Shown one piece after another: positions 1-12,361 of a stretch of DNA of 14,787 bases. The notes below the pieces were generated by a model. That model was not told the origin of the DNA, searched no databases, and worked only from the letters and a program-made list of their open reading frames with translations. The stretch is from Bdellovibrionia bacterium (GTDB lineage: Bacteria > Bdellovibrionota > UBA1018), in assembly GCA_045805065.1 (NCBI GenBank), contig JBJMMA010000202.1, forward strand, positions 1 through 14,787. The letters are read 5' to 3'. A program made the translations under genes and the position numbers. Each line of letters opens with the position of its first letter. Position 1 is the first letter of the stretch.

Positions 1-749
1 ACCGTTTCCGCAATCAGACCCACCAGGTCAAACTCCTCGGTTTGCAGATGGAGCTTTTTTAGATTCAGCCGCGAGACATCGAGCATATCCTCGACAAGAT
101 GAACCAATCGCTCCACTTGTCTACCGGTTGATGCCACAAGTTTACGGGTAGTGGCAGGCTCGTAGATCTGAGCGTCACCTAAGTCAATCTTTCTCTGACT
201 GAGCTGCGTTTGAAGCCTGAGAGATGTGAGCGGAGTCTTGAGCTCATGGGATGCGATCGAGATGAACTCATCACGCATTCGGGTTGCCGCCACTTGCTTA
301 TCAAGCAGCTCTCTCACCAGATGCTGCTTCCTTCTTGCTCGCAATGCCACTTGAACCGCGCTCCGAAGCGTGATTCGGCGAAAAGGTCGTTCAAGAAGGC
401 TGATGTTTCCCGAAGGGCTGAAAGCTTCTGTGATCCGCATAATGGCCACCGTGGTGTTGCCCTTCGAGGTCATCAGAATGATCGGGATGTCAGACCAAGG
501 CGCCTGCTCTTCCAAGGCTTGGTTGAGTTGCTGGATCGCAGCAGAACTTAAAGCTTCATCTGCAATTAATAGAGTCGCGACTCGATCCGATGCGATTTCC
601 TGGCTCACTGCCTCGACGCTGGCCACGATACGGGTAGCTACCTTTTCTTCAGCCAGCGCGACAGCCATCAGAGTCGCGTCCTGCCCGGTTGGGGCCAGGA
701 TGACGATTCTCTCGTCACTACTAGGCCATGCATCAGTCAAGTTCGGCAT
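1..749 (-). CDS. Sensor histidine kinase with N-terminal degenerate (pseudo-)receiver domain and HisKA; 3' end runs off the window
   Basis: Not in the ORF track; translated by hand. ATG at 749 with GGGAG upstream. Reads MPNLTDAWPSSDERIVILAPTGQDA...WSDIPIILMTS...NISLLERPFRRITLRSAVQVALRARRKQ...RDEFISIASHELKTPLTSL...LVEDMLDVSRL and stays open to the left edge. H-box SHELKTPLT. Overlaps the end of the kaiC-like gene by 17 nt. Confidence 0.92.
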   Translation of the reverse strand, partial: MPNLTDAWPSSDERIVILAPTGQDATLMAVALAEEKVATRIVASVEAVSQEIASDRVATLLIADEALSSAAIQQLNQALEEQAPWSDIPIILMTSKGNTTVAIMRITEAFSPSGNISLLERPFRRITLRSAVQVALRARRKQHLVRELLDKQVAATRMRDEFISIASHELKTPLTSLRLQTQLSQRKIDLGDAQIYEPATTRKLVASTGRQVERLVHLVEDMLDVSRLNLKKLHLQTEEFDLVGLIAET

Positions 750-2244
750 TCACAGGACTCCCTTTAAGGTCCTGGCCGACCAATGCCGGTACCCCGGTGA
801 GGACGCCTTGGAAGTTTGTCAGAGGTTCGCCTACCGTGATTCCGCCTTTTTGGATTTTCAGCTCGCGAATCGTCGTCTCATGCATTCCGCCTCTTTTCTT
901 AATGACGGAAACAGCTTTTCTCACGCTGCCTACCGCTTCAAAAAAGCGGGTCACAATCACAGTGTCTGCGAGATAGGTCAGGTCAACCGGAGTCTGCATC
1001 AGGCCCATCATGCCTTGCTGTGCAAGCACAAGCAGCGTTACGACCCCTTGATTCCCCAAGAAAGCCAAGAGTTCGTGAAGCTGAAGGGTCAAGAACTCTT
1101 CCTGCGGCATAGCATGAAGATAACCATTCAAGCTATCGATCGAAACGACTTTAAGGTTTTCTTGAAGGACGCGAGTACGAATCAAATCCGCAAATTCTCC
1201 AGGCGAAAGTTCAGCAGGATCTATTTTCTGAATATGAAGCATGCCCGACTTGATATGCTTTTGAAGATCCATGCCCAGAGCTTCGGTGCGAGCCAACATC
1301 GTTTGAAGACTTTCCTCAAAAGCGTAGATGGCAGCCTTCTCGCCACGTTCAGCGGCAGCGTATGCAAACTGAATAGCCAGAGTCGACTTACCCGTGCCGG
1401 CAGGACCCATGAACAGACTGCTAGTGCCTGGATCAAGCCCACCCCCCAGCAAAGCATCGAGGTGAGGAATGCCGCTCGATGCCGGAGTTTCCCGAGTGTA
1501 GTCCCCCATATGGTCCGATGCGATCATTCGCGGGAACACCTTGAGTCCTCCCTTTCGAATCACATAATCGTGGTTGCCCCCGGTAAATTGGACGCCACGT
1601 AATTTTACGATGGAAATGCGACGCCTTTCGTCTCCGAACTCAGGGTGCAGTTTTTGAAGCTGGATCACGCCATGCACAATGCTTTGCACCTGAAGGTCGC
1701 GTGGAGCAGCAGTCAGATCATCCAAGAACAAGACAGTGCATGCTCTTTTGGAAAAGATCTGCTTGAGCGCCAAAATCTGGCGGCGGTAATTGAAAGCTGT
1801 CTCGGCCAGCATCCGCAATTCGGTCACCGAATCAAAAACTACGCGGCGAGGCTGCACGCGATCAATTTCATCGAGAACCAGACGCACGGTCTGATTCATC
1901 TCGACTTCGGAGGAATGGAAAACTGTATTTTGGGATTCAGGCTGAAGCTGATGCTCAATGGTCGAGAGATCAAAGAATTCGAGAGAACTGATGTCCCAGC
2001 CATGCGAATCGGAGACCGAACGCAGCTCGGTCTGAGTTTCAGAAAAGGTGATGTACAAACACTTTTCTCCAGACCTTGCGCCTTCGAGCAAGAACTGAAG
2101 AGCCAGAGTCGTCTTGCCCGTTCCCGGTTCACCTTGAACCAGATAGAGCCGGTCGCTCGGAAATCCCCCACCTAGAATCGTATCCAGACCGCCAATACCT
2201 GTTGCACTCAGCCCAGCTGGGCCTGACATCGTTTTCTTGCTCAT
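733..2244 (-). CDS. kaiC: KaiC-like double-domain RecA-superfamily ATPase
   Basis: Two RecA-type domains with Walker A GEPGTGKT and GPAGTGKS, catalytic-region motifs ITFSET and AFEES, Walker B VVFDS and VSIDS, and Arg-finger motifs IVKLRG and VIKKRG. Start placed at ATG 2244 because GAGGT lies 6 nt upstream; the ORF track uses GTG 2250. Confidence 0.93.
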   Translation of the reverse strand: MSKKTMSGPAGLSATGIGGLDTILGGGFPSDRLYLVQGEPGTGKTTLALQFLLEGARSGEKCLYITFSETQTELRSVSDSHGWDISSLEFFDLSTIEHQLQPESQNTVFHSSEVEMNQTVRLVLDEIDRVQPRRVVFDSVTELRMLAETAFNYRRQILALKQIFSKRACTVLFLDDLTAAPRDLQVQSIVHGVIQLQKLHPEFGDERRRISIVKLRGVQFTGGNHDYVIRKGGLKVFPRMIASDHMGDYTRETPASSGIPHLDALLGGGLDPGTSSLFMGPAGTGKSTLAIQFAYAAAERGEKAAIYAFEESLQTMLARTEALGMDLQKHIKSGMLHIQKIDPAELSPGEFADLIRTRVLQENLKVVSIDSLNGYLHAMPQEEFLTLQLHELLAFLGNQGVVTLLVLAQQGMMGLMQTPVDLTYLADTVIVTRFFEAVGSVRKAVSVIKKRGGMHETTIRELKIQKGGITVGEPLTNFQGVLTGVPALVGQDLKGSPVNAELD

Positions 2245-2419
2245 TCCCACACCTCAGAATGCCTCGATGTATCACAAAAACCCCGGCTACACTATGTGAT
2301 CTGTAGCCGCTTAAAGATAAAAACCAATCGTTTCCACGGTCCCTAATCCGGGCCAAAGCTTGCTCATGGTAGGTTTGAACATGCTCTTGCTCTTCAGGGC
2401 GCACTCACTTCTAAAACGA

Positions 2420-2881
2420 CTATAGGCTGACAGGAATCCCGTCTGAAGAGTCGGCTCGGTCAGCCGTAGCGCGAGACAACGCAAAGTTTGCCATCTCATC
2501 GTCTCCCTGACCGCAGTACTGCTGCACGACTTCCATCAGTGCATCCAGGCTCACTGGTTTCTTGATGTACCCCACGGCTTTTTCAACTGCTTTTGTATCG
2601 GCAAGCGCGGTCTTCGCAGGAAGGGCAGAAATCACAACAACTGGAAGCGAGGCAAACACTGTGTCAGCCTTTTGCTTTTCAAGGAACTCCCAGCCAGTCA
2701 ACGTAGGCATCATGAGATCCAGTAGGATCAGGCAAGGGCCAGGTATCTTTTCAAGAAGCAAAACTGCTTCGGCGCCATTGGCGGCGCTCGACACCGGATA
2801 ACCCTCGACTTCGAGAACTTGAACGATTGCTTCGCGGATGTCTCGATCGTCTTCGACTACCAAAATGCTTTTACAACGCAT
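2420..2881 (-). CDS. Single-domain CheY-like response regulator with a ~30-aa C-terminal tail
   Basis: ILVVEDD acidic pocket, ILLDLMMP phosphoacceptor Asp, VVVISA, YIKKPV. GAGG ribosome-binding site upstream of ATG 2881. Confidence 0.93.
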   Translation of the reverse strand: MRCKSILVVEDDRDIREAIVQVLEVEGYPVSSAANGAEAVLLLEKIPGPCLILLDLMMPTLTGWEFLEKQKADTVFASLPVVVISALPAKTALADTKAVEKAVGYIKKPVSLDALMEVVQQYCGQGDDEMANFALSRATADRADSSDGIPVSL

Positions 2882-3085: not shown

Positions 3086-4822
3086 TCACAACTCCTCGGA
3101 AAAGACCTTTTCAGTAATCTTCCAAAACTTATCCTGCTTACGCGCAATCACAAACGCAGGTAACCGAAAAAGATGCTGAGACTTGATCACGTCCTGAGGC
3201 GTCTTGATTTCGAAAGCAAGCTCAGGGCGCTTCAGATGAGAGCGAAGAAAGTTGATATTGAACTTCTTGACGGACGATGGATTGCTGAAAAAATGGGCCT
3301 CACTCACGTACTGAGCGTCGTAGTCATAATAGCGAATTTCAAGATAAGGCTTCGAATTCTTATCCAGGCGCTCATCAAAGGTGATTCGGTCTGGAGTCAG
3401 GACATGGGAGTTTTTTGAGAGCTTGGCTTGCTTTAACTTTGCGTCAGCATCAATCAACGTCGCATCGCATTTTTCGCAAGCCTTTGCCGTGATGTCGTTT
3501 TCAGCGCCACAGCTATGACAAAGCTTCAGGCGAAACCGATAACCACAAGGCGTAATTTCATAGGTCTGTGGATCCTGAAAAGCCCCCCGGCACTTTCTTC
3601 CGAAGTGCTCAATGACTTCTCCGTCATCATCGGCATATCCCCAAAAGATATTGTCAAACCCGCATTGAGGACAGGGCACGTTCACTTGCACAGTATCTTT
3701 TGCAGGGCGCTTGTCGCTGATTTCTGGGGCGTAGATATCGTGCCCCATCCCCGTGTAATCGAGGATATAGCAATCCTTCTTCTCGTCTGAAAGACGCAGA
3801 CCCCGGCCGACAATCTGCTGATAAAGGCTATTGGACTCCGTCGGACGCAAAATCGCGATTACATCCACATGAGGCGCATCAAATCCGGTCGTCAGGACTG
3901 AGACATTGACCAGATATTTGAATTTCTTCTTTTTGAAATCCTGAACGGTCTGATCGCGCGCGGACATCTCGGTGTCACCTAAGACCAGGCGCGCCTGCCC
4001 CTCCGGGAGATACGACATGATTTCTTCGGCGTGCCGGACGGAGCTGCTGAAGATCATCACACCCTGTCGGTGAAAGCGCTCGGTGATATCGATGATGTTT
4101 TTAATGATCAGCGGAGTCAGGCGCTTTTGGCTTTTGAGAATCTCCTCAACCTCTGCCACCGTATACATCCGCCCACTCTCGCTCAGCTCTGAGAAGTCAT
4201 AACTTGTAACCGGGATATCCACCTTTACGGGCACGGTGAGATAGCGGTTTTTGATCATATACGAGAGTGGAAGCTCATAGACGCATTGTTTGAAAAAACG
4301 GGGCTGATCCGTTTTGATCTCGCCCGTCTGCGAAAACTCATAAATCCAACCCAAGCCCAGCCGATAAGGAGTCGCTGTAAGCCCTAGGATGCAAAGACCG
4401 GGGTTGCGGGCCTGAAGCTTTTTGATGACTTCCTGATATTGAGTCGACCCCTCATCCGCCACACGGTGGCACTCATCAATGATCAGAAGGGAGAAGTCTT
4501 CAAAAAACTCATCTGAAGCACGCGCAATGGACTGAACGTTTCCAAAAATGGCTTTCTGATCTCGATCTTTTTTGCCAAGGCTTGCTGAAAAGATTCCGGC
4601 CGAAAGTCCGTAACTGACGTACTTTTCGTAGTTCTGCTCGACAAGCTCTTTCACATGAGCCAGCACCAGAACACGACCCTTGGCGATACGGGCAAGCTCA
4701 GCAATCACCAAGCTTTTTCCTGCACCAGTTGGCAGAACCACTACCGCTGGAGCGCGCTTTTTCTTGAAGTATTTGACGACCTGATCGACAGCCGTCTGTT
4801 GATAGTCTCGCAGCTTGTACAT
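3086..4822 (-). CDS. radD: RadD/YejH-family SF2 DNA repair helicase with C-terminal zinc-finger region
   Basis: LRDYQ Q-motif, [45 protein letters not shown] and Cys motifs CPQC, CHSC, CEKC. At 578 aa it closely resembles E. coli RadD as I recall it. Confidence 0.92.
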
Positions 4823-5390: not shown

Positions 5391-6581
5391 TTATGAAGCT
5401 CTGACCACCTCAGGCTCAAGCTTCCTAAGCTCCGTGGAAGAAAAGAGCGCCAAGCCAAGGAATGGCACTCCCAACGCCAGAACAACAAGCCCCGAGCCAG
5501 TGCCGTAAGCAATCATTGGAATCGCAAGTGTCCCGCCAATAATCCGGCCGGTCATTTGAACCATCATGGAAAAACCATAAACCGATCCCTGAGCGCGCGT
5601 TTTTGGAAGAGTCTGAAGAATAACCACCTGAGAGAGCGAGCCGAAAACAATCTCGCCCAAAGTGGTGAGAAACATTCCTCCGTAGATCATCGCGCGGGTG
5701 GCGAATCCAGATTCACTGCCTGCGGCCTCAAGCGCGACCGCAGCCCCGAGCATCTGCAGGAACAATCCCAGCGGCAGAACTCGGGCTGGATTTTTGAACA
5801 TTCTGGCCGCATGGACCGAAAAGAGCGCGCAAAGCACCGTATTGATCACCATGCTCAGGGAAAATATCCTCACGCCTTCAGGGCCAAAAGCAATTCGGTA
5901 CTTGGCAGCCGCGCCTGTCAGGAAGAACTCGTAAACGAGACTGAAGCCAGCAACGATCAAGGTACAACGAGCAAAAGTTCCCCAGGGCGCCCCCTCTTGC
6001 TCTTCCGGATTTACTCCCAGCGCGACAACTGCAGGCTTATGCTCGGGAAGCCATTTCATCCCACAGACCACGGCCAGGAGTGAGGTTATTGCGTCAAAAT
6101 AAATGAGCAAGGCAGTCCCCAAGGACGCGAATACGCTTCCAATGGAAAAGCTGACGATCTGACCCGCGTTATTTCCCGTGCGCAGCCACGCAATCGCTTC
6201 TTTAACCTGGTTTTTTTCCACCATCTCTGTGAGCAAAAGGCGCGCAGGCGAATGAAAGAGATTGTTTCCAAGCTGCGCCAGCATGGCAAAGGCAGCAAGT
6301 AGCAGCACGGATTTAACGGAGGCCATCCCAAAAAGACCCACAGCTGAAAACCCAAACGATACCAGAAGAACTTTCTTCATCCCCAGGCGATCAGAAGCCA
6401 CTCCCCCAAGAAACGCCGCAACAAGCGCCATTGCCTTGGTTAAACCCATAATGAGCGATGCCTCACCGATTGCGACCTGACGCTCAACAAGCAGTACGGG
6501 CAGAAGACTGAGCCCGATAGTACCCACTTTATTGACAAACGAAGTTGCAGTCAGAGGCAGGCTGGCACGGAATGCTTTCAT
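5391..6581 (-). CDS. Major facilitator superfamily transporter
   Basis: 396 aa with about 12 hydrophobic segments, MFS motif A (GVASDRLGMKK) after TM2, and a central hydrophilic loop. Confidence 0.9.
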   Translation of the reverse strand: MKAFRASLPLTATSFVNKVGTIGLSLLPVLLVERQVAIGEASLIMGLTKAMALVAAFLGGVASDRLGMKKVLLVSFGFSAVGLFGMASVKSVLLLAAFAMLAQLGNNLFHSPARLLLTEMVEKNQVKEAIAWLRTGNNAGQIVSFSIGSVFASLGTALLIYFDAITSLLAVVCGMKWLPEHKPAVVALGVNPEEQEGAPWGTFARCTLIVAGFSLVYEFFLTGAAAKYRIAFGPEGVRIFSLSMVINTVLCALFSVHAARMFKNPARVLPLGLFLQMLGAAVALEAAGSESGFATRAMIYGGMFLTTLGEIVFGSLSQVVILQTLPKTRAQGSVYGFSMMVQMTGRIIGGTLAIPMIAYGTGSGLVVLALGVPFLGLALFSSTELRKLEPEVVRAS

Positions 6582-6768
6582 CGTTATTCCAGTTTACTCA
6601 CCGTGCATCAGAAGCCAACTTCCAAACAAAAAACTCTCATTGCACAGCGGCATTTCAATCAAAAACTTTGCGATTTCCTTAAAACGATGTTTTGTTCACG
6701 GAACACTCGTGGATTTCCACGACTACGTCCAATCAGGGACATCCGACAACAGGAGATACAAAGATTGT

Positions 6769-7740
6769 ATGAAACTTTTTAAGAGCAGTCTCATTCTCAG
6801 TATTGCCCTTACTCTTGGCTTATCTAACGCTATGGCTACGCAACATCACCGCAAAGTGAGAGCTGCATTGCCACCCAACAACTTGCACCTCATGGATAAC
6901 CCAAGCCGCGTTCAAAACATCGATGAAAAGACGTTCAACGCCATCATCGATCAGGCTCAGGCCTACTTCACGCCAGTCTTCGCAAAACATAATGCCAAGC
7001 TGACGGTCGTCAGACGCTGGAACGACAGCACAGTCAATGCTTACGCTGAACAACAAGGCAGCAACTGGCTTGTCACGATGTTCGGTGGACTTGCCCGCCG
7101 CCCTGAAATCTCCGCAGACGGATTCGCTCTCGTGATCTGCCATGAAATCGGCCATCACCTCGGTGGTTACGCTTTCATCGACGATGATTGGGCGTCGACC
7201 GAAGGAAACTCTGATTACTTCTCTACCCAAGCTTGCGCTCGCGCTCTCTGGGGCAGACCAAGCCTGGCCAACCACTACGCAATCCGCTACGCCACTCGCC
7301 TGGAGCAGCAAGCTTGCGATGCGGTCTGGAAAGACCAGAACTCCCGCGAAGTTTGCTATCGCTCGATCAATGCCGGTCAATCGCTTGCAAATCTTCTTGC
7401 TGCGATCGGTGGCGAGAAACAGCCTCACATCGAGACTCCGGATCAAACCCAGGTTTCCTCGACCTACACCGAGCACCCTGCTGCTCAGTGCCGTCTGGAC
7501 ACCTACGTTCAAGGTGCTTTGTGCGCAAAGCCATTTGACCTCAACGTGATCCCAGGCCGCGGAAACTCCGCTGGCCAAGACAGCGCTGCTGCTGAGACCG
7601 AATCCATGAAGTATACCTGCTATACTTCCCAAGGATTCCAACTGGGCTTCCGCCCACGTTGCTGGTTCAAGCCTAAGATCGAGAATCCTTTCCACAGACA
7701 GGACTCGACCGAAATGACCCCAGTTCTTTCTCAGAACTAA
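6769..7740 (+). CDS. Secreted Cys-rich HExxH zinc metalloprotease (M48/gluzincin-like), 323 aa
   Basis: ATG 6769 with AGGAGA upstream. Signal peptide MKLFKSSLILSIALTLGLSNAMA, then VNAYA, CHEIGHH (HExxH at 7141-7155), a candidate third ligand in EGNSDY, a late HP motif, and multiple Cys. Confidence 0.85.
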   Translation: MKLFKSSLILSIALTLGLSNAMATQHHRKVRAALPPNNLHLMDNPSRVQNIDEKTFNAIIDQAQAYFTPVFAKHNAKLTVVRRWNDSTVNAYAEQQGSNWLVTMFGGLARRPEISADGFALVICHEIGHHLGGYAFIDDDWASTEGNSDYFSTQACARALWGRPSLANHYAIRYATRLEQQACDAVWKDQNSREVCYRSINAGQSLANLLAAIGGEKQPHIETPDQTQVSSTYTEHPAAQCRLDTYVQGALCAKPFDLNVIPGRGNSAGQDSAAAETESMKYTCYTSQGFQLGFRPRCWFKPKIENPFHRQDSTEMTPVLSQN

Positions 7741-7753
7741 GCTGTATCGAATC

Positions 7754-7792
7754 GGCCTGGGATCTGTCTGATGACGGATCTCAGGCCTTTTT
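7754..7792 (+). terminator. Rho-independent terminator
   Basis: GGCCTGGGATCTGTC-TGAT-GACGGATCTCAGGCC forms a 15-bp stem with two G-U pairs, followed by TTTTT. It begins 13 nt after the protease stop codon. Confidence 0.9.
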
Positions 7793-7820
7793 GCATCTTA
7801 ACTTCAAGAGGATCCCATCC

Positions 7821-8201
7821 ATGCGCGCAACGTTCTCTCAAATCTTCGTTTTGCTCTTCTCCCTACTCGCTTTGTCGCCACTGCACTCATATGCAGACGA
7901 ACCCGTAAAGCTTGCGATTGAAGTCGATATCCGGGGTGGCTTCGTAGGGTTTGATACTCCTGCGTTTGCTACGGTGCGCGCGGTCATGGCAAGCCTCATT
8001 ATGGACGGAACGCTTGCGCACTGGATCACCACTTCTCGCGGCATGGAAGGTGGCGGAACCTATTGCATGCAGTTTCATCCGGAATTCATCTCTCGCAAGT
8101 CTCGCGTGCTCGCGCAGTTCCAGAACATCCATGTGAACGAAGTTTCGACTGCTTACTCAGTTCGCGAACTTGAGCGATGTGAGATTCCCGCGCTGAAATA
8201 A
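7821..8201 (+). CDS. Small exported hypothetical protein (126 aa)
   Basis: ATG 7821 with GAGG upstream. Signal peptide MRATFSQIFVLLFSLLALSPLHSYA|D. Two Cys (GMEGGGTYC and ELERC) could form a disulfide. Confidence 0.75.
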   Translation: MRATFSQIFVLLFSLLALSPLHSYADEPVKLAIEVDIRGGFVGFDTPAFATVRAVMASLIMDGTLAHWITTSRGMEGGGTYCMQFHPEFISRKSRVLAQFQNIHVNEVSTAYSVRELERCEIPALK

Positions 8202-8225
8202 CGAGCTTTTCGCCTGCGCGAGTTT

Positions 8226-10511
8226 TCATTGAGTATGCAGTCTTGTTCGAAGGAAATCGACATGACACGAGACTGCTTGGATGGTCTTTGAACTTATCCC
8301 GCGCAATAAGAGCTTATTCAGGAATTCTCGATCCCGATAAAGCGAAGCTACAACCGATCTCTCATGAGCAGACAGTTCTTTGAGACTTTTCCGCTCGGCA
8401 TGGATCGCTCCCACTTTCTTGAGCCTGTCAAAAATCTGATCTGCCGCCACTTTCTGGATCATCACGGTTCTCTGCTCAAGCGGAAGGTCAGTCAGGACAA
8501 AATGAGAGTCTCCAGCAAGTTTTGCAATATCATCCAGAAGCAGCCTAACATCCTTGATTCGATCCAGACTTCCTATCAAAAGCATCGGATCCTTTTCGAT
8601 CACTTGGACTCCGATGCCCCAGTGATTCTTGAACTCAGCCAATTTGGGATCAAGATTCTCTTCAATGGATAAGCCGAGAATTACGGGAAAGGCGCTGATC
8701 ACTTTACCCCTGTCAGTAAAGTGTTTCCGAACCCAATCGGCCTTAGGGTCAAGCTTATTGGGGATCGAGTAGCTCAACACTTGCGGGAAGGAGCCAATCA
8801 CCTTTCCCGGGTTTTCGACACCGTGCTTGGCTAGCCATGAAAAAGTGTCATCGTTGTTTTCAATGGAATAACCGAGAAGCGCCGGGAAGGAATCGATCAG
8901 TTTTCCGACGTTTTGAATTCCTTGTTTTCTGAACCATTCAGCCCGGGGCTCAAGAGTATCTTTGACAGAATGAGTGATCACACGCGGATTGGTACTAAGC
9001 AATTTTCCAATGTCCTCAACTCCCTGCTTCTTCAGCCAGGCAACTGTTGGCTTGAGATTTTCTTCGACCGACAGGCCCAAGATGGATGGCTGCGAGCTCA
9101 GTGTTTTCGTGAGATCCTGAACTCCTTGCCGCTCAAGCCACTCAGCCGTAGGTTTGAGATTTTCCTCAAGGGAAAGACGTAGCACCGGAGGCCAGGCGTT
9201 GACCAGCTTTCCGACGTCCTTAACTCCTTTGCTCTTGAGCCAGTCCGCTTTGTCTTGGAGATCCTTCAGGGTATGACTTAGAAACTCCGGGTGATCCCCG
9301 ATGAATTCACCGATACTACTGACCTTCAGATCCTTCAGCCATTTTACCTTGGGATCAAGACTTTCCTCAGTGGAACGCCGGGCAACGACAAGTAAGGCCC
9401 GGGTAAGCCTTTCTGAAGTTGTGACTCCCTGTTTCTTGAGCCATTCAATATGATCTTTGAGCTCTTTTGTAGAGGTCCTGCCATCGACCACATCCAGGAT
9501 CTCTTCACGCTCAATGTATGCAAAACCTTCGTCTTTGAGGACCTTGATGAGTTCGTCCGTCTTAACGCTCGAGACGGTAGGGGTTAATTTTTCTCGCAAG
9601 GCGCCGACATAGATCGCGATTTCACGAGGCTTGTTTGGAATTTTCCCTTGGGCCTCGGCAATGTGAGAAAGCAGTTCGTGGATCTTATGATTGCGGTAGA
9701 GATCTGCGATCATCTTTCGTTCGAAAGGATGCAATCTGGCAAACTCTTCCCTCTTGAGTCCGATCGACTTCACATCTTTGAGACTTCTGATCAACTGACT
9801 CGCCGACCCGGTTCGGATCAGGTCCTTGCGTAGGTCAGGAGCCAGCGTTTCGAGATCAAAGTGCGGCTCCTCGGCGGTTTTCGCAATTTTGTCGAGAAGC
9901 AGCCTGAGCCTTAGAACCCTCAGAAGATCTGTTCCAAGAAGCTGCGGAGACTTTTCAATGTCGAGTATTCCAAGTCTCCAATGCTCCTTCAACTCCACGA
10001 GTGTGGGATCAAGATCGCCTTTAATGGAAAGAGCAAGTAGGTCCGGGTAGGCGCTGATCAGCTTTTTAGTACTTTTGAATCCCTGTTGATTTAACCATTG
10101 CACCTTATCTTCCAGGCTGCCGATGGAATCCGCGAAAAGGTCCGGATGGGAGCTCACAAGCTTTCCAGTATCGGTAACTCCCTGTTTTTCAAGCCACGCC
10201 ATTCGTTTGTCGAGATCGCCCTGGATAGGATGAGGGAGAGCGACTGGCAACACTTTGGCAAGCTTTTCAAAGTCGGTCACCCCGTGACTCTGAAGCCACT
10301 TAACATGGTGTTCAACGTATTCGTCGGAGTAAGTCCGATCTACCCTGCTGACAATCCGCTGAACCTGATTGACGGAGAACCCCAGCGATTTGAGGGCCAC
10401 GCGTATGGATAAAACCTCGCGCCCAAAGGAAATCTGAGTGCTCCCTATACCCACGAGAAGGGCAAGAATCAGGATTCGACAGAGTTTTGGCGGGCATCGC
10501 TTCAGAGACAT
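8226..10511 (-). CDS. mTERF-like tandem-repeat protein with predicted signal peptide (~761 aa)
   Basis: Eleven Trp-anchored 33-34-aa repeats with consensus WLxxxGVxDxGKLIxxxPxLLxxSIEENLxPxxx, resembling mTERF repeats. N-terminus MSLKRCPPKLCRILILALLVGIGSTQISFG|R. Start is ATG 10511 or TTG 10526. The CDS itself is secure; the family call is by eye. Confidence 0.8.
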   Translation of the reverse strand: MSLKRCPPKLCRILILALLVGIGSTQISFGREVLSIRVALKSLGFSVNQVQRIVSRVDRTYSDEYVEHHVKWLQSHGVTDFEKLAKVLPVALPHPIQGDLDKRMAWLEKQGVTDTGKLVSSHPDLFADSIGSLEDKVQWLNQQGFKSTKKLISAYPDLLALSIKGDLDPTLVELKEHWRLGILDIEKSPQLLGTDLLRVLRLRLLLDKIAKTAEEPHFDLETLAPDLRKDLIRTGSASQLIRSLKDVKSIGLKREEFARLHPFERKMIADLYRNHKIHELLSHIAEAQGKIPNKPREIAIYVGALREKLTPTVSSVKTDELIKVLKDEGFAYIEREEILDVVDGRTSTKELKDHIEWLKKQGVTTSERLTRALLVVARRSTEESLDPKVKWLKDLKVSSIGEFIGDHPEFLSHTLKDLQDKADWLKSKGVKDVGKLVNAWPPVLRLSLEENLKPTAEWLERQGVQDLTKTLSSQPSILGLSVEENLKPTVAWLKKQGVEDIGKLLSTNPRVITHSVKDTLEPRAEWFRKQGIQNVGKLIDSFPALLGYSIENNDDTFSWLAKHGVENPGKVIGSFPQVLSYSIPNKLDPKADWVRKHFTDRGKVISAFPVILGLSIEENLDPKLAEFKNHWGIGVQVIEKDPMLLIGSLDRIKDVRLLLDDIAKLAGDSHFVLTDLPLEQRTVMIQKVAADQIFDRLKKVGAIHAERKSLKELSAHERSVVASLYRDREFLNKLLLRGISSKTIQAVSCHVDFLRTRLHTQ
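8637..9461 (-). repeat. Protein-level tandem repeat array 2 (8 units)
   Basis: Anchor Trp at residues 362, 396, 429, 463, 497, 531, 564 and 598 (spacing 34,33,34,34,34,33,34). Confidence 0.88.
9996..10316 (-). repeat. Protein-level tandem repeat array 1 (3 units)
   Basis: Anchor Trp at residues 77, 111 and 144 of the 766-aa ORF-track translation (spacing 34, 33). Confidence 0.8.
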
Positions 10512-10604
10512 AAGTTCTCGTCTCAATATCGGCAGTTTAAGCGCAATGATTGAACGTAGTTCTCAGAATTTATGCCAGACCGCATTAAACGGCCCCCCAG
10601 GGAT

Positions 10605-11495
10605 TCAGGGGGATATCTTTCCTTCGATCAGAGTCACTGCTTCGCCCGATAGACGGATCGCCTGGATATTGTCAGCGCTTCCTACTCTTTCAAGTTCCCC
10701 AACTCCGGGCCTTCCCATCCAATGGCCTTGCTCCGCAATCAACCGATCTTCCTGAACAAAGCCGTATTTCCAGAGATAAGCGGCCATGCAGCCTGTCGCG
10801 GACCCGGTATAGGGATCTTCAAGCGTTGCAGGGGGCGTTGGAAGACTCCGGGCAAAAGTACGTCCCTTGGGTGTGGCGCCCTCAAGACAGAAATGATGAG
10901 CAAATAAGAAGTCGCCTTCTGATTTCAGTTTCAAATACTTCTCGGGATCCACGTACCTTGCGCGTCTCAGCGCATCGAGGCTTGCCAAAGGAACCATGAG
11001 GATAGGTGTGCCCGTGCTCACGGTCTGGATACGCGCACCTGGTAAGAGATCACTTGGATTTAATCCAAAAATCTCAAGAAGCTCCGTGGACTCATAGGTT
11101 CGCAAAAACCTTGGAGCAAGCTGCGACATGGTAATCCGAGTCCGGTCCGCCTTCACTTCGTATTCAACGGGAATAATGCCAGCAGGCACTTCAAGCGACA
11201 CGCTCCCTTTTGCAGAAGGACTATTAATACGACCGGTGTGAATCAAACTATGGATTGTCGCTATCGTCGGATGTCCCGCAAAAGGCAACTCTTCCTCAGG
11301 AGTAAAGTATCGAGCCCCGAAATCGGCTTTTGTCGAGCTGCGCACAAAAGCCGTTTCAGATAGATTGATCTCTTTTGCAATTCTCTGCATTTGCTCTGCA
11401 GAAAGATGATCCGTGTCGAGAACGACGGCGCACGGATTTCCGCCGAACTTTGTACTGGTAAACGCATCGATCCAAAGAAAAGAGAGTTGAGTCAC
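10605..11495 (-). CDS. PhzF-family isomerase/epimerase-like protein
   Basis: IDAFT..GGNP, NLSETAF, FTPEEELPFAGHPT, EDPYTGSA and EQGHWMGRP motifs. GTG start. Confidence 0.93.
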   Translation of the reverse strand: MTQLSFLWIDAFTSTKFGGNPCAVVLDTDHLSAEQMQRIAKEINLSETAFVRSSTKADFGARYFTPEEELPFAGHPTIATIHSLIHTGRINSPSAKGSVSLEVPAGIIPVEYEVKADRTRITMSQLAPRFLRTYESTELLEIFGLNPSDLLPGARIQTVSTGTPILMVPLASLDALRRARYVDPEKYLKLKSEGDFLFAHHFCLEGATPKGRTFARSLPTPPATLEDPYTGSATGCMAAYLWKYGFVQEDRLIAEQGHWMGRPGVGELERVGSADNIQAIRLSGEAVTLIEGKISP

Positions 11496-11557
11496 CGGAC
11501 TACTGTAACATATTCAGACGCGCCGTCCATGCCGCGATCTTGCATCACTCTGACGTT

Positions 11558-12361
11558 GTGAATCGGAAAGACTTTTACAAACTGCTTTTCGTTCCAATAG
11601 GCCTGCTCCTCCTCAAGAACCGGGTAATCGGTCCGGCTCATTTATATAGCCAAACGCCGACCGCGCCTCAAAAGACGCTGGAGATCATGGTCGAAAATTC
11701 GGCGGAACCGTGGTCAAATCCAGATGGAACGGGATATGCCAATGACATCGTTGTCGCAGCATTTAAAGAAATGGGAGTCGACGTCCGCTTAAAGGTCGTG
11801 CCCTATTCACGGTGTAAAGCCGAGGCAATGGAGGGTAATACCACCGCTTGCGTCAGTATGAGCTGGCTGCCCGAGTTCAAAGGCCGTATCCAACTTGCCT
11901 CAAAAACGCTCATCGTCCTGGATGCGGATGTCTTTGAGAATGTCCACTCCCCTTTGCCAAGCACACCCAACCACAAATGCAAATTACCTGTCGGAACAAG
12001 AGTAGGTACGGTGATCGGCTATGAGTACCCAAAACAAGTCATGGATCTTCAAAGACAAGGCGTCATCTTTGAAAGTGTGAATTCAGACGGTCAAAACATC
12101 AATAAACTTGCGCGAAACCGAATCGACGCCGCAGTAGTCATTACCAACCACCACGAACCCAAGAACAAGAAGGTTCTTAAAGAGCACCAAGAGGCTAATG
12201 TGCGACTCGCTTTCAACTGCGGCACGGAGACTGGTACGATTGGATTCAGCCTGAAGAACCCGGATGGAGCTTGGGCGCGAAAGATTTTTGAATCCGGCTA
12301 TAACAAAATAGTCCAGAAAGATCTGCTAGCAGAGTTTGAGAAGAAATGGTTCGGTCACTAA
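11558..12361 (+). CDS. Extracytoplasmic solute-binding protein (family 3-like)
   Basis: EPWSNPDGTGYANDIVVAAF, VPYSRC, VGTVIGYEY and KLARNRIDAAV are typical of family-3 binding proteins. Likely start is GTG 11558 (MNRKDFYKLLFVPIGLLLL); the ORF track uses TTG 11540. Confidence 0.85.
   Translation: MNRKDFYKLLFVPIGLLLLKNRVIGPAHLYSQTPTAPQKTLEIMVENSAEPWSNPDGTGYANDIVVAAFKEMGVDVRLKVVPYSRCKAEAMEGNTTACVSMSWLPEFKGRIQLASKTLIVLDADVFENVHSPLPSTPNHKCKLPVGTRVGTVIGYEYPKQVMDLQRQGVIFESVNSDGQNINKLARNRIDAAVVITNHHEPKNKKVLKEHQEANVRLAFNCGTETGTIGFSLKNPDGAWARKIFESGYNKIVQKDLLAEFEKKWFGH

What the first reader, a model, noticed from the sequence alone, without database searches (positions are those of the whole stretch)
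8226..10511. Bacterial mTERF-like repeat protein
Seen: eleven 33-34-aa repeats, for example WLERQGVQDLTKTLSSQPSILGLSVEENLKPTVA, WFRKQGIQNVGKLIDSFPALLGYSIENNDDTFS and WLAKHGVENPGKVIGSFPQVLSYSIPNKLDPKAD. Established: the P-x-(I/L)-L-x-x-S-(V/I)-E-x-x-L-x-P...L-x-x-x-G pattern is characteristic of mTERF repeats (Pfam PF02536). These are helical-solenoid nucleic-acid binders of mitochondria and plastids, generally described as eukaryotic. Inference: this is a bacterial member or close analogue among ordinary bacterial genes, relevant either to the origin of mTERFs or to eukaryote-to-bacterium transfer.
Basis: partly seen in the sequence, partly recalled or inferred. Interest (0 to 1): 0.9.

Follow-up and report, generated by a model that had tools for sequence, protein, structure and literature searches.

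The report
Exported bacterial mTERF repeat protein
A soil Bdellovibrio-like bacterium really does encode a protein of the "mitochondrial" mTERF nucleic-acid-binding repeat family, but with a bacterial export signal, so it probably acts outside the cell's own cytoplasm; bacterial mTERF-like proteins were first published in 2024, so this is a distinct new branch, not a first.

Summary
Window 8226-10511 (-) encodes a 761-aa protein with eleven 33-34-aa repeats. It matches Pfam mTERF at 143 bits against a 23.1 cut-off. A confident model (pLDDT 91.6) has human MTERF3, MTERF1 and MTERF4 as its best solved-structure matches.

The gene is bacterial, not a chimera. Both junctions are bridged by contigs from separate runs, its composition is ordinary, and relatives sit between housekeeping genes in other Bdellovibrionota.

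- a cleavable-looking signal peptide;
- two tandem modules, each a cap, repeats and a roughly 140-aa tail that is itself degenerate mTERF;
- a near-universal lone C-terminal cysteine.

The family is rare: 4 of 401 genomes of the phylum and 1 of 127 of the class. By bit score it is much closer to plant and algal mTERFs than to animal ones, which favours transfer from eukaryotes. The tree does not settle this.

DNA-binding prokaryotic "pTERF" proteins are in print (PMC11417379). This scan had already noted bacterial mTERF-like proteins in at least 23 other genomes, one of them exported in a Bdellovibrio relative. The function, probably nucleic-acid or polyanion binding outside the cytoplasm, is inferred.

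The parts
8226..10511 (-). Whole gene: a 761-aa exported two-module mTERF-repeat protein (P0002). The stop codon is at 8226-8228.
   Evidence: ORF list and translation. The identical 761-aa protein is on record. Pfam PF02536 scores 143 bits.
10422..10511 (-). Residues 1-30: Sec-type signal peptide. It has a basic n-region (K4, R5, K9, R12), a 13-residue hydrophobic core and an S-F-G cleavage-like site before R31.
   Evidence: Read from the sequence. A hydrophobic-segment heuristic is positive. No SignalP-type program was available.
10299..10421 (-). Residues 31-71: N-terminal capping helices of module 1.
   Evidence: Aligns with the caps of family members. P0023 aligns to residues 1-289.
9993..10298 (-). 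Residues 72-173: three canonical mTERF repeats of module 1.
   Evidence: Repeat HMM. PF02536 match at 9918-10346 in the six-frame search.
9561..9992 (-). Residues 174-317: tail of module 1. The family-specific tail domain is matched at residues 169-275, followed by a linker helix.
   Evidence: Tail HMM, i-E 5.5e-32.
9444..9560 (-). Residues 318-356: capping helices of module 2.
   Evidence: Aligns with the N-terminal cap of P0016. Helices in the model.
8634..9443 (-). Residues 357-626: eight canonical mTERF repeats of module 2.
   Evidence: Repeat HMM. PF02536 match at 8634-9446. In the model each unit has three helices.
8229..8633 (-). Residues 627-761: tail of module 2, made of degenerate mTERF-like repeats plus a long C-terminal helix.
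   Evidence: Tail HMM, i-E 1.1e-36. The tail folded alone gives pLDDT 91.6. Its best structural matches are again mTERFs, at Z 5.9-6.7.
8265..8267 (-). Cys749: the only cysteine of the mature protein. Its position is conserved in the family.
   Evidence: A Cys lies within the last 32 residues in 30 of 31 family members. It is the only Cys beyond residue 35 in 17 of 31.

Best explanation
The gene encodes a true member of the mTERF helical-repeat superfamily that belongs to a distinct, bacterial, exported clade.

Shown:
- The protein has an N-terminal signal-peptide-like segment followed by two tandem copies of a module.
- Each module is a cap, then 3 or 8 canonical 33-34-residue mTERF motifs (three helices each), then a roughly 140-residue tail that is itself a degenerate continuation of the mTERF solenoid.
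- The final tail carries a lone conserved cysteine.
- The same module, in 1 to 8 copies, makes up a family of metagenomic proteins. Family members were found in three other Bdellovibrionota genomes, where they lie between housekeeping genes.

Inferred:
- The family arose from a plant- or algal-type eukaryotic mTERF by horizontal transfer and then spread patchily among bacteria. It was found in only 1 of 127 genomes of its own class.
- The protein is exported by the Sec pathway. It acts outside the producer's cytoplasm as a basic solenoid that binds nucleic acid, or another polyanion, along a surface lined by three to four basic positions per repeat.
- In a Bdellovibrio-like organism the most likely place of action is the periplasm or the invaded prey cell.

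My odds: mTERF-family identity 0.95; genuine bacterial gene 0.95; exported 0.8; eukaryote-to-bacterium direction 0.6; nucleic-acid binding 0.45-0.5.
For: Family and fold:
- PF02536 at E 1.3e-41, 143 bits against a 23.1 cut-off, in 3 stretches.
- AF2 model of residues 330-761: pLDDT 91.6, pTM 0.78, three helices per unit.
- Foldseek against the PDB: ranks 1-17 are all mTERF entries, for example MTERF3 3m66 (E 2.7e-6, TMt 0.67) and MTERF1 3n6s (TMt 0.61).
- The family profile A1 hits MTERF3, MTERF1 and MTERF4 by sequence.

Bacterial context:
- The neighbours are KaiC, histidine kinases, response regulators, a helicase, MFS, DoxX and PhzF.
- The helicase gene is 82% identical in DNA to a same-genus genome.
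- Gene GC is 0.493 and GC3 0.541, like the neighbours. 17% of random 2.3-kb genome chunks are at least as far from the genome's tetranucleotide mean. The contig ranks 110 of 151.
- Contigs of single runs bridge the 3' junction (8082-8266 and 8113-8304) and the 5' junction (10410-10729), with 0 differences.

Family:
- 1513 HMMER hits. The closest are P0016 (48% identity), P0017, P0018 and P0023.
- The tail domain is present in 29 of 171 fetched proteins under a strict filter.
- 23 of these 29 pass one or other of my two signal-peptide heuristics (20 of 29 on the first; 21 of 29 on the second).
- Relatives lie in G152 beside an ABC ATPase gene, in G106 beside genes I read as tyrS and zapA, and in G091 beside genes I read as glcD and serA. 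These gene names are my own reading of the translations; no family scan was run on them.

Rarity:
- PF02536 in 1 of 61 relatives.
- Profile A1 in 4 of 401 genomes of the phylum and 1 of 127 of the class.

Closeness to plant and algal types:
- A1 scores 131-143 bits on plant MTERF5/9 and 297 bits on the tail-less protein P0007, whose own sequence I did not inspect.
- A1 scores 48.7, 40 and 25 bits on human MTERF3, MTERF1 and MTERF4.

Charge:
- The mature protein has pI 8.96. The family median is 9.36, and 26 of 29 members are above 8.
- Repeat positions 3, 8, 12 and 32 are K or R in 46-72% of 120 repeats.

Precedent: the prokaryotic pTERF1 and pTERF2 bind specific dsDNA at nanomolar Kd (PMC11417379).
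Against: - No experiment or binding data exists for this clade.
- Export was judged by eye and by a crude heuristic, not by a trained predictor. A nucleic-acid binder outside the cytoplasm has no obvious substrate unless the organism is a predator, and I did not show that for this genome.
- The module-1 repeats are acidic (pI 5.5).
- The tree on repeat columns is poorly resolved (36 of 66 inner branches open) and unrooted, so the direction of transfer is not shown.
- Most of the proteins I treat as eukaryotic relatives carry no taxon label. I judged six of them dinoflagellate-like from their sequence features. Only six proteins in all carry organism names.
- 42 of 142 tail-less relatives also have a signal-peptide-like N-terminus, so that feature is not unique to the bacterial clade.
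- No comparison with an empty site in relatives was possible.
Confidence: 0.55

Rival explanations
1. It is an exported helical-repeat scaffold that binds protein, cell-wall or polysaccharide ligands. The mTERF fold would be reused as a generic solenoid, as TPR and Sel1 repeats are in the periplasm, with no nucleic-acid role.
For: A signal peptide is present across the family. The extracytoplasmic location lacks an obvious nucleic-acid substrate. The module-1 repeats are acidic. A lone conserved Cys suits a periplasmic disulfide-linked assembly.
Against: All characterised mTERF-fold proteins that I saw, the PDB entries and pTERF, bind DNA or RNA. The family is basic overall, with 3-4 conserved basic positions per repeat.
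Confidence: 0.27
2. It is a host-directed mimic. The bacterium lives on or in a eukaryote such as an alga or protist and delivers the protein to interfere with mitochondrial or plastid gene expression, copying the host's own mTERFs.
For: It is closest in sequence to plant and algal mTERFs. It is export-competent. Its patchy distribution is typical of acquired eukaryote-like effectors.
Against: There is no evidence that this soil lineage associates with eukaryotes. A Sec signal alone does not deliver a protein into a host organelle. The bacterial clade has its own tail and cysteine and is not a close copy of any labelled eukaryotic sequence, with 34-44% identity at best over parts.
Confidence: 0.08
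3. It is a cytoplasmic sequence-specific DNA-binding regulator like pTERF. The N-terminal hydrophobic stretch would be a mis-called start or a membrane anchor that keeps the solenoid inside.
For: pTERF1 and pTERF2 are DNA binders in bacteria. ESM Atlas clusters labelled Bacteria that carry PF02536 are the nearest by features, at scores 0.82-0.87, which are leads only.
Against: In the sequences printed the hydrophobic core is short (about 10-17 residues), is preceded by basic residues and is followed by small residues at -3 and -1 (for example A-x-A). That is the pattern of a cleaved signal, not an anchor. This is my reading by eye. It recurs in 23 of 29 family members. The positive-inside rule would put the solenoid outside.
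Confidence: 0.07
4. It is an assembly chimera or eukaryotic contamination in the bin.
For: The gene is unique in its class. The window is a short 14.8-kb contig of a 262-contig MAG.
Against: Both gene junctions are bridged by contigs from single runs with 0 differences. These runs may be the assembly's own source data. Composition is indistinguishable from the genome's. There are no introns. Homologues lie in three other Bdellovibrionota genomes between core genes, one on a contig over 150 kb.
Confidence: 0.03

Closest known systems
Eukaryotic organellar mTERF family (Pfam PF02536), especially plant MTERF5/MTERF9-type and algal mTERFs
   Same: The repeat motif is the same: a conserved Pro (10 of 11 repeats here; 92% of 120 family repeats), hydrophobic spacing, and N-L-x-P-K at the unit boundary. 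Each unit has three helices. The overall pI is basic. Profile scores are 131-143 bits to plant MTERF5/9, and identity reaches 40-44% over 120-240 residues to tail-less, apparently algal proteins.
   Different: It is encoded in a bacterial chromosome and has a Sec-type signal peptide instead of a transit peptide. It has a family-specific tail with a lone C-terminal Cys. The whole module is tandemly duplicated (2 copies here, up to 8 in P0020). The repeats are strictly head-to-tail.
Human MTERF1, MTERF3 and MTERF4 (PDB 3n6s/3mva, 3m66, 4fp9)
   Same: The solenoid fold is the same: Foldseek E 2.7e-6 to 6e-3, TM by target 0.54-0.67. The tail alone also aligns best to mTERFs, at Z 5.9-6.7.
   Different: Sequence similarity is only remote. 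phmmer with the single protein finds nothing at E<0.01, and the family profile reaches 25-49 bits. The base-flipping and arginine contacts of MTERF1, which I recall and did not test, could not be mapped.
pTERF, prokaryotic mTERF-like tandem-repeat DNA binders (Nucleic Acids Res 2024;52:10464, PMC11417379)
   Same: Both are bacterial, come from MAGs, have head-to-tail mTERF-like repeats (3-11 units) and a predicted three-helix unit. pTERF gives the only experimental precedent, nanomolar and sequence-specific dsDNA binding (section 53).
   Different: As described in the paper, pTERF1 is from gut Bacillota, shares only 9-18% identity with eukaryotic mTERFs and lacks their conserved Pro and Leu pattern. 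This clade is from soil Bdellovibrionota, scores 143 bits on the eukaryote-based Pfam model and keeps the Pro and Leu pattern. It also carries a signal peptide and tail, which section 53 does not mention. No direct sequence comparison was possible because the supplement with the pTERF list could not be read.

Membership tests
mTERF (Pfam PF02536) | Profile match above the curated gathering score | tested here: met
   143 bits against a 23.1 cut-off, E 1.3e-41, 3 stretches; the best is residues 361-631 on profile positions 2-290 of 314. The six-frame genome search gives 97 and 28.1 bits, both over the cut-off.
mTERF (Pfam PF02536) | Repeated motifs of about 30-35 residues, each of three helices | tested here: met
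   11 units of 33-34 aa. DSSP on the model shows three helices per unit.
mTERF (Pfam PF02536) | Conserved proline and regularly spaced hydrophobic (Leu) positions within the motif, as summarised in PMC11417379 section 53 citing Roberti 2009 | tested here: met
   Pro at repeat position 18 in 10 of 11 units of this protein (sequence) and in 92% of 120 family repeats. Leu/Ile/Phe at positions 21, 29 and 2 in 82-87%. The spacing is shifted by one residue relative to the published 30-residue motif because the unit here is 34 residues long.
mTERF (Pfam PF02536) | Superhelical solenoid fold like solved MTERF1/MTERF3 | tested here: met
   Foldseek PDB ranks 1-17 are all mTERF entries, with TM by target 0.46-0.67 for most.
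mTERF (Pfam PF02536) | Binds DNA or RNA | not testable with these tools
   Only indirect evidence: basic pI and conserved basic repeat positions.
mTERF (Pfam PF02536) | Nuclear-encoded and targeted to mitochondria or plastids (the usual description, not a structural criterion) | tested here: not met
   It is a bacterial chromosomal gene with a Sec-type signal peptide.
pTERF (PMC11417379) | Sequence relatedness to pTERF1 or pTERF2 | not testable with these tools
   The pTERF sequences and Table S11 could not be read. ESM Atlas clusters labelled Bacillota that carry PF02536 are the nearest by features, at 0.82-0.87, which is a lead only.
pTERF (PMC11417379) | Very low identity to eukaryotic mTERFs (9-18%) and absence of their conserved Pro and Leu pattern, as the paper describes for pTERF1 | tested here: not met
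   This protein keeps the pattern and scores 143 bits on PF02536. It therefore looks like a separate bacterial lineage.

The most novel reading that the evidence does not exclude
A Bdellovibrio-like lineage captured a plastid-type mTERF from an alga with a secondary plastid. In such algae the protein already begins with an ER-type signal peptide, so the captured gene would have been exported from the start. It was then remodelled, with an added tail, a lone cysteine and multiplication of the module, into a secreted nucleic-acid-binding weapon that acts on the DNA or RNA of invaded prey. That would make it an mTERF-based analogue of TAL effectors, directed at bacteria.
Probability: 0.12. Interest if true: 0.8.

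Novelty: new variant of a known kind. Interest (0 to 1): 0.5.

Why it matters
Reviews and recent papers still describe mTERFs as eukaryote-specific organelle factors. Together with pTERF (2024), this clade shows that the fold occurs in at least two different bacterial settings.

This clade is the one with clear sequence kinship to plant and algal mTERFs. It is therefore the better handle on the direction and timing of transfer between eukaryotes and bacteria.

Its export signal raises a concrete, testable question: what does a nucleic-acid-binding solenoid do outside the cytoplasm of a Bdellovibrio-like bacterium? The compact modules, a cap with 1-8 repeats and a tail, could also serve as small natural scaffolds for studying or engineering mTERF-nucleic acid recognition.

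Tried and rejected
Searches that gave nothing or could not run:
With A3 on genome contigs it returned only L020, which is the same DNA as G152's locus L013.
- Both metagenome-contig scans found no relative. The contexts of most family members are therefore unseen.
- The word-indexed homologue searches were insensitive, with 14 and 12 hits.
- tblastn against the phage and plasmid collections found no match.
- No tRNA lies in the window, and the gene has no flanking direct repeats.
- The promoter and terminator scan was at chance level.

Synteny: only the helicase is shared with G001, G003, G004 and G018. The G001 contigs end inside the helicase and PhzF genes, so no empty-site comparison was possible.

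Tail domain alone: Foldseek against the PDB gave no hit at E<=0.001. The VIA wide search gave mTERFs on top, but at Z<8, a range the tool warns can be generic for helical proteins.

Homodimer of the tail, to test a Cys-linked dimer: complex prediction gave no verdict, with score 0.00 against a mark of 0.42. This is not evidence either way.

Expression: no RNA holder was listed among the four runs.

ESM Atlas: hits scored 0.82-0.87 and are leads only.

The supplement of PMC11417379 could not be read.

Paper searches found no paper on an exported or Bdellovibrio mTERF:
- mTERF + Bdellovibrio: 0 papers.
- mTERF + eukaryotic-like + effector: 0 papers.
- mTERF + Legionella: 2 papers, irrelevant by title.
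- mTERF + bacterial homolog: of 40 papers holding the terms, the 10 listed do not describe a bacterial mTERF, judged by title and abstract.
Full report
**1. Observation**

The minus-strand ORF at 8226-10526 (TTG) or 8226-10511 (ATG) is the longest in this part of the window. The 761-aa ATG form is the protein on record (P0002).

A repeat HMM built from landmarks in the protein finds 11 units of 33-34 residues. Three are at residues 72-173 and eight at residues 357-626, each with i-Evalue 4e-17 to 4e-20. Because the HMM was built from those units, that agreement is circular. The control is that it finds none at i-E<0.01 in any of 50 shuffled versions.

At DNA level the units recur every 102 nt at only 65-85% identity. 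This is an old, diverged array, not a recent expansion.

**2. Family and fold**

Pfam PF02536 (mTERF) matches at E 1.3e-41, 143 bits against a gathering score of 23.1. Nothing else passes its cut-off. NCBIfam has no model for it.

An AlphaFold2 model of residues 330-761, built with a 26-row alignment, has mean pLDDT 91.6 and pTM 0.78 and shows three helices per unit.

Foldseek against the PDB puts only mTERF entries in ranks 1-17:
- MTERF3 3m66: E 2.7e-6, TM by target 0.67.
- MTERF1 3n6s and 3mva.
- MTERF4 4fp9.
- The Tetrahymena mitoribosomal mTERF 6z1p_BY.

The single sequence finds no PDB chain by phmmer at E<0.01. The family profile finds MTERF3 (48.7 bits), MTERF1 (about 40) and MTERF4 (about 25). 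Membership in the mTERF superfamily is therefore met on profile, motif and fold.

**3. Is it really bacterial?**

The window is a whole contig (C202) of a 4.22-Mb, 262-contig genome that is 94% complete and 1.5% contaminated.

- **Neighbours.** They are plainly bacterial: a KaiC-type ATPase, two histidine kinases, two response regulators, a ResIII/DEAD helicase, DoxX, an MFS transporter and PhzF.
- **Kinship of the contig.** The helicase gene is 82% identical in DNA to a genome of the same genus. Its protein is 83-88% identical to homologues in the four genomes of the family that I compared.
- **Composition.** The mTERF gene has GC 0.493 and GC3 0.541, inside the range of its neighbours. Its tetranucleotide distance from the genome mean is matched or exceeded by 17% of random 2.3-kb chunks. 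The contig ranks 110 of 151 contigs of at least 10 kb.
- **Junctions.** Short contigs assembled from single public runs bridge both ends of the gene with no differences. The runs are four soil-metagenome runs of one study and may be the assembly's own source. Pieces 8082-8266 and 8113-8304 cross the 3' end. Piece 10410-10729 crosses the 5' end into PhzF.
- **Phylum.** A locus of genome G152, which shares the phylum, is 100% identical to a record titled Bdellovibrionota bacterium. Two earlier notes of this scan on this genome also call it Bdellovibrio-like.

A chimera or eukaryotic contaminant is very unlikely.

**4.

*(a) Signal peptide.* Residues 1-30 look like a cleavable Sec signal: basic residues, a 13-residue hydrophobic core, and small residues at -3 and -1.

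An HMM of the tail finds it twice here, at residues 169-275 and 622-728. It finds four copies in P0017, eight in the 2097-aa P0020 and three in P0092. Under a strict filter, 29 of the 171 proteins fetched carry it.

Folded alone, the tail gives pLDDT 91.6 and pTM 0.84. It has no Foldseek match at E<=0.001. The exhaustive aligner puts three mTERFs on top: 6z1p_BY (Z 6.7, 100 residues), 3n6s (Z 6.5, 116 residues) and 3m66 (Z 5.9).

These Z values are modest for helical proteins. Taken with the weak matches of the tail's first 40 positions to tail-less mTERFs, I read the tail as degenerate terminal mTERF repeats plus a long C-terminal helix.

*(c) Lone cysteine.* A cysteine lies within the last 32 residues in 30 of 31 family members. 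The exception, P0023, may be truncated at its C-terminus. It is the only cysteine beyond residue 35 in 17 of 31 members, this protein included (Cys749). The internal tail has Tyr at that place. I have no tested explanation. A periplasmic intermolecular disulfide is a guess, and the dimer prediction gave no verdict.

**5. The family and its distribution**

HMMER against 1.84 billion representatives gives 1513 hits at E<=0.001, of which 60 are at E<=1e-30. The closest are:
- P0016: 449 aa, 48% identity, covering residues 418-761.
- P0017: 894 aa.
- P0018: 501 aa.
- P0023: 301 aa, 43% identity over residues 1-289, a single-module look-alike of module 1.

Of the 29 tail-bearing proteins, 20 pass my first signal-peptide heuristic and 21 pass the second, 23 by either. 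The other six start inside repeats or lack a Met and may be truncated.

Counts in whole genomes:

| Search | Genomes with a match |
|---|---|
| PF02536, the window's genome plus 60 relatives | 1 of 61 (the window's own) |
| Family profile A1, sample of the phylum | 4 of 401 |
| Family profile A1, the window's own class | 1 of 127 |
| Family profile A1, family of G152 | 1 of 20 |
| Family profile A1, family of G106 | 2 of 14 |

The other three carriers hold shorter versions of 373, 276 and 201 aa. I read signal peptides on all three from the printed translations, by eye. The 373-aa one (P0027) also passes both heuristics and carries the tail by my HMM. For the two shorter ones the tail is likewise my reading by eye.

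They lie between ordinary genes: an ABC-transporter ATPase gene; genes I read from the translations as tyrS, a YmdB-like phosphoesterase, a 5-formyl-THF cyclo-ligase and zapA; and glcD-like and serA genes. No family scan was run on these neighbours.

There is no conserved gene neighbourhood and no phage or plasmid relative. The window has no tRNA, and the gene has no flanking repeats.

**6. Relation to eukaryotic mTERFs**

The best tail-less hits share 40-44% identity over 120-240 residues. The six I inspected (P0003, P0004, P0008, P0021, P0022 and P0024) have a conserved N-terminal domain followed by near-identical consensus repeats. I judged them dinoflagellate-like from these features. They carry no labels. 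Labelled hits are a cryptophyte, a dinoflagellate and flowering plants.

The family profile scores 131-143 bits on plant MTERF5/9 but only 25-49 bits on human MTERF1, MTERF3 and MTERF4. The clade is thus far closer to plant and algal mTERFs than to the animal mTERFs.

I built a tree on repeat-only columns. It used 69 rows, namely the 66 of 173 proteins whose match covered at least 80% of the anchor model, with P0017 contributing three module rows. Module 1 of this protein fell out for that reason. The tree kept 134 columns and used the quick IQ-TREE search with LG+G4.

- The tail-bearing label needs 5 changes on the tree, against 21.7 in shuffles (0 of 500 shuffles as low).
- A 29-row clade that I read as dinoflagellate-like has support 98.
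- A clade of P0019, P0025 and flax MTERF5 (P0165), which I read as plant-type, has support 99.
- 36 of 66 inner branches are unresolved, and the tree is unrooted.

Holding the 27 tail-bearing rows together gives a likelihood 48 units higher than the free search found, with p-AU 0.96. A single bacterial clade is therefore compatible with the data.

I take this, with the rarity in bacteria, to favour one eukaryote-to-bacterium transfer followed by spread among bacteria (about 0.6). The opposite direction is not excluded.

An odd point: 42 of 142 tail-less relatives also begin with a signal-peptide-like segment. From my own knowledge, this is expected for proteins sent to secondary plastids. It is the basis of the bolder reading given in the section on the most novel reading.

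**7. How it probably works**

Shown: an exported-looking, basic solenoid.
- The mature protein has pI 8.96.
- The family median pI is 9.36, and 26 of 29 members are above 8.
- Across 120 repeats of 29 proteins, positions 3, 8, 12 and 32 are Lys or Arg in 64%, 46%, 72% and 60%.
- Positions 4, 15, 16 and 19 are the most variable. Position 1 (Trp) is 100% partly because the seed was chosen on it.

Inferred: the basic stripe binds a polyanion, most likely DNA or RNA. This is what solved mTERFs do and what the published prokaryotic pTERF1 and pTERF2 do, at nanomolar Kd on specific dsDNA motifs (PMC11417379, section 53 read whole).

Because the protein leaves the cytoplasm, the substrate would be periplasmic, extracellular or prey nucleic acid. 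Earlier unverified notes of this scan describe other normally cytoplasmic proteins with export signals in Bdellovibrio-like genomes and suggest action inside prey. I use that only as a lead.

The module-1 repeats are acidic (pI 5.5), which does not fit simple charge-driven binding.

**8. Comparison with what is known, and novelty**

Two mTERF papers state that the family is absent from bacteria or is eukaryote-specific (passages only: PMC12977773; PMC7826268). The 2024 NAR paper reports pTERF as the first prokaryotic mTERF-like class. Its members come from gut MAGs, mostly Bacillota, and it describes 9-18% identity to eukaryotic mTERFs and loss of their Pro and Leu pattern. Its supplementary list of homologues could not be read, so I cannot exclude that a Bdellovibrionota member is in it.

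This scan has also noted bacterial mTERF-like proteins in at least 23 other genomes. One note describes exported 35-residue-repeat proteins in a small-genome Bdellovibrio relative. A word-based look-up with P0016 found no look-alike among earlier windows.

I found no paper on an exported or Bdellovibrio mTERF.

This is therefore a new variant of a known kind. It is a second bacterial mTERF lineage that stays close in sequence to plant and algal mTERFs, is exported, has its own tail and cysteine, and multiplies as whole modules.

**9. Verdict**

Interest is moderate (0.5). The finding is real and raises a clear, testable question, but the headline "bacterial mTERF" is no longer new.

Noticed in passing
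window 3-2881 (-): A double-domain KaiC-type ATPase (733-2250; PF06745, 262 bits) overlaps by 17 nt a histidine-kinase gene that runs off the contig (3-749). A stand-alone response regulator lies upstream of it (2420-2881). This is a KaiC-kinase-regulator cluster in a non-cyanobacterium.
   Followed up: no
window 3086-4822 (-): A 578-aa ResIII/DEAD helicase with a Cys-rich C-terminal part is 83-88% identical in protein to homologues in four genomes of the family. None of its neighbours is syntenic there.
   Followed up: partly
window 6532-7740 (+) and 7791-8201 (+): Two genes converge on the mTERF gene. Both encode proteins with signal-peptide-like N-termini and have no Pfam match at E<=1e-5. 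The larger one carries an H-E-x-x-H (HEIGHH) zinc-protease-like motif.
   Followed up: no
window 7754-7787 (+): A strong 15-pair hairpin followed by a T-run lies between those two genes. It may be a terminator, or a copy of the palindromic gene-end repeats that earlier notes describe in this genome.
   Followed up: no
proteins P0020 (2097 aa), P0017 (894 aa), P0092 (741 aa): These metagenomic relatives string 8, 4 and 3 whole cap-repeat-tail modules together. The module, not the single repeat, is the unit of duplication.
   Followed up: partly
proteins P0003, P0004, P0008, P0021, P0022, P0024 and similar: These tail-less relatives share a conserved N-terminal domain of about 200 aa after a hydrophobic start. 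It holds a P-P-x-W-W-Q-G-G-W-R-R stretch and an F-V-E-Y-D-G-Y-W-R-H stretch. The domain is fused to near-identical mTERF repeats. They are probably dinoflagellate proteins, and the domain was not identified. In one search the precomputed family PF26683 is listed for several of them, but it is not in the Pfam copy I could scan.
   Followed up: no
window 11540-12361 (+): A 273-aa ORF between PhzF and the response regulator has no Pfam match at E<=1e-5. By eye it resembles a periplasmic solute-binding protein.
   Followed up: no
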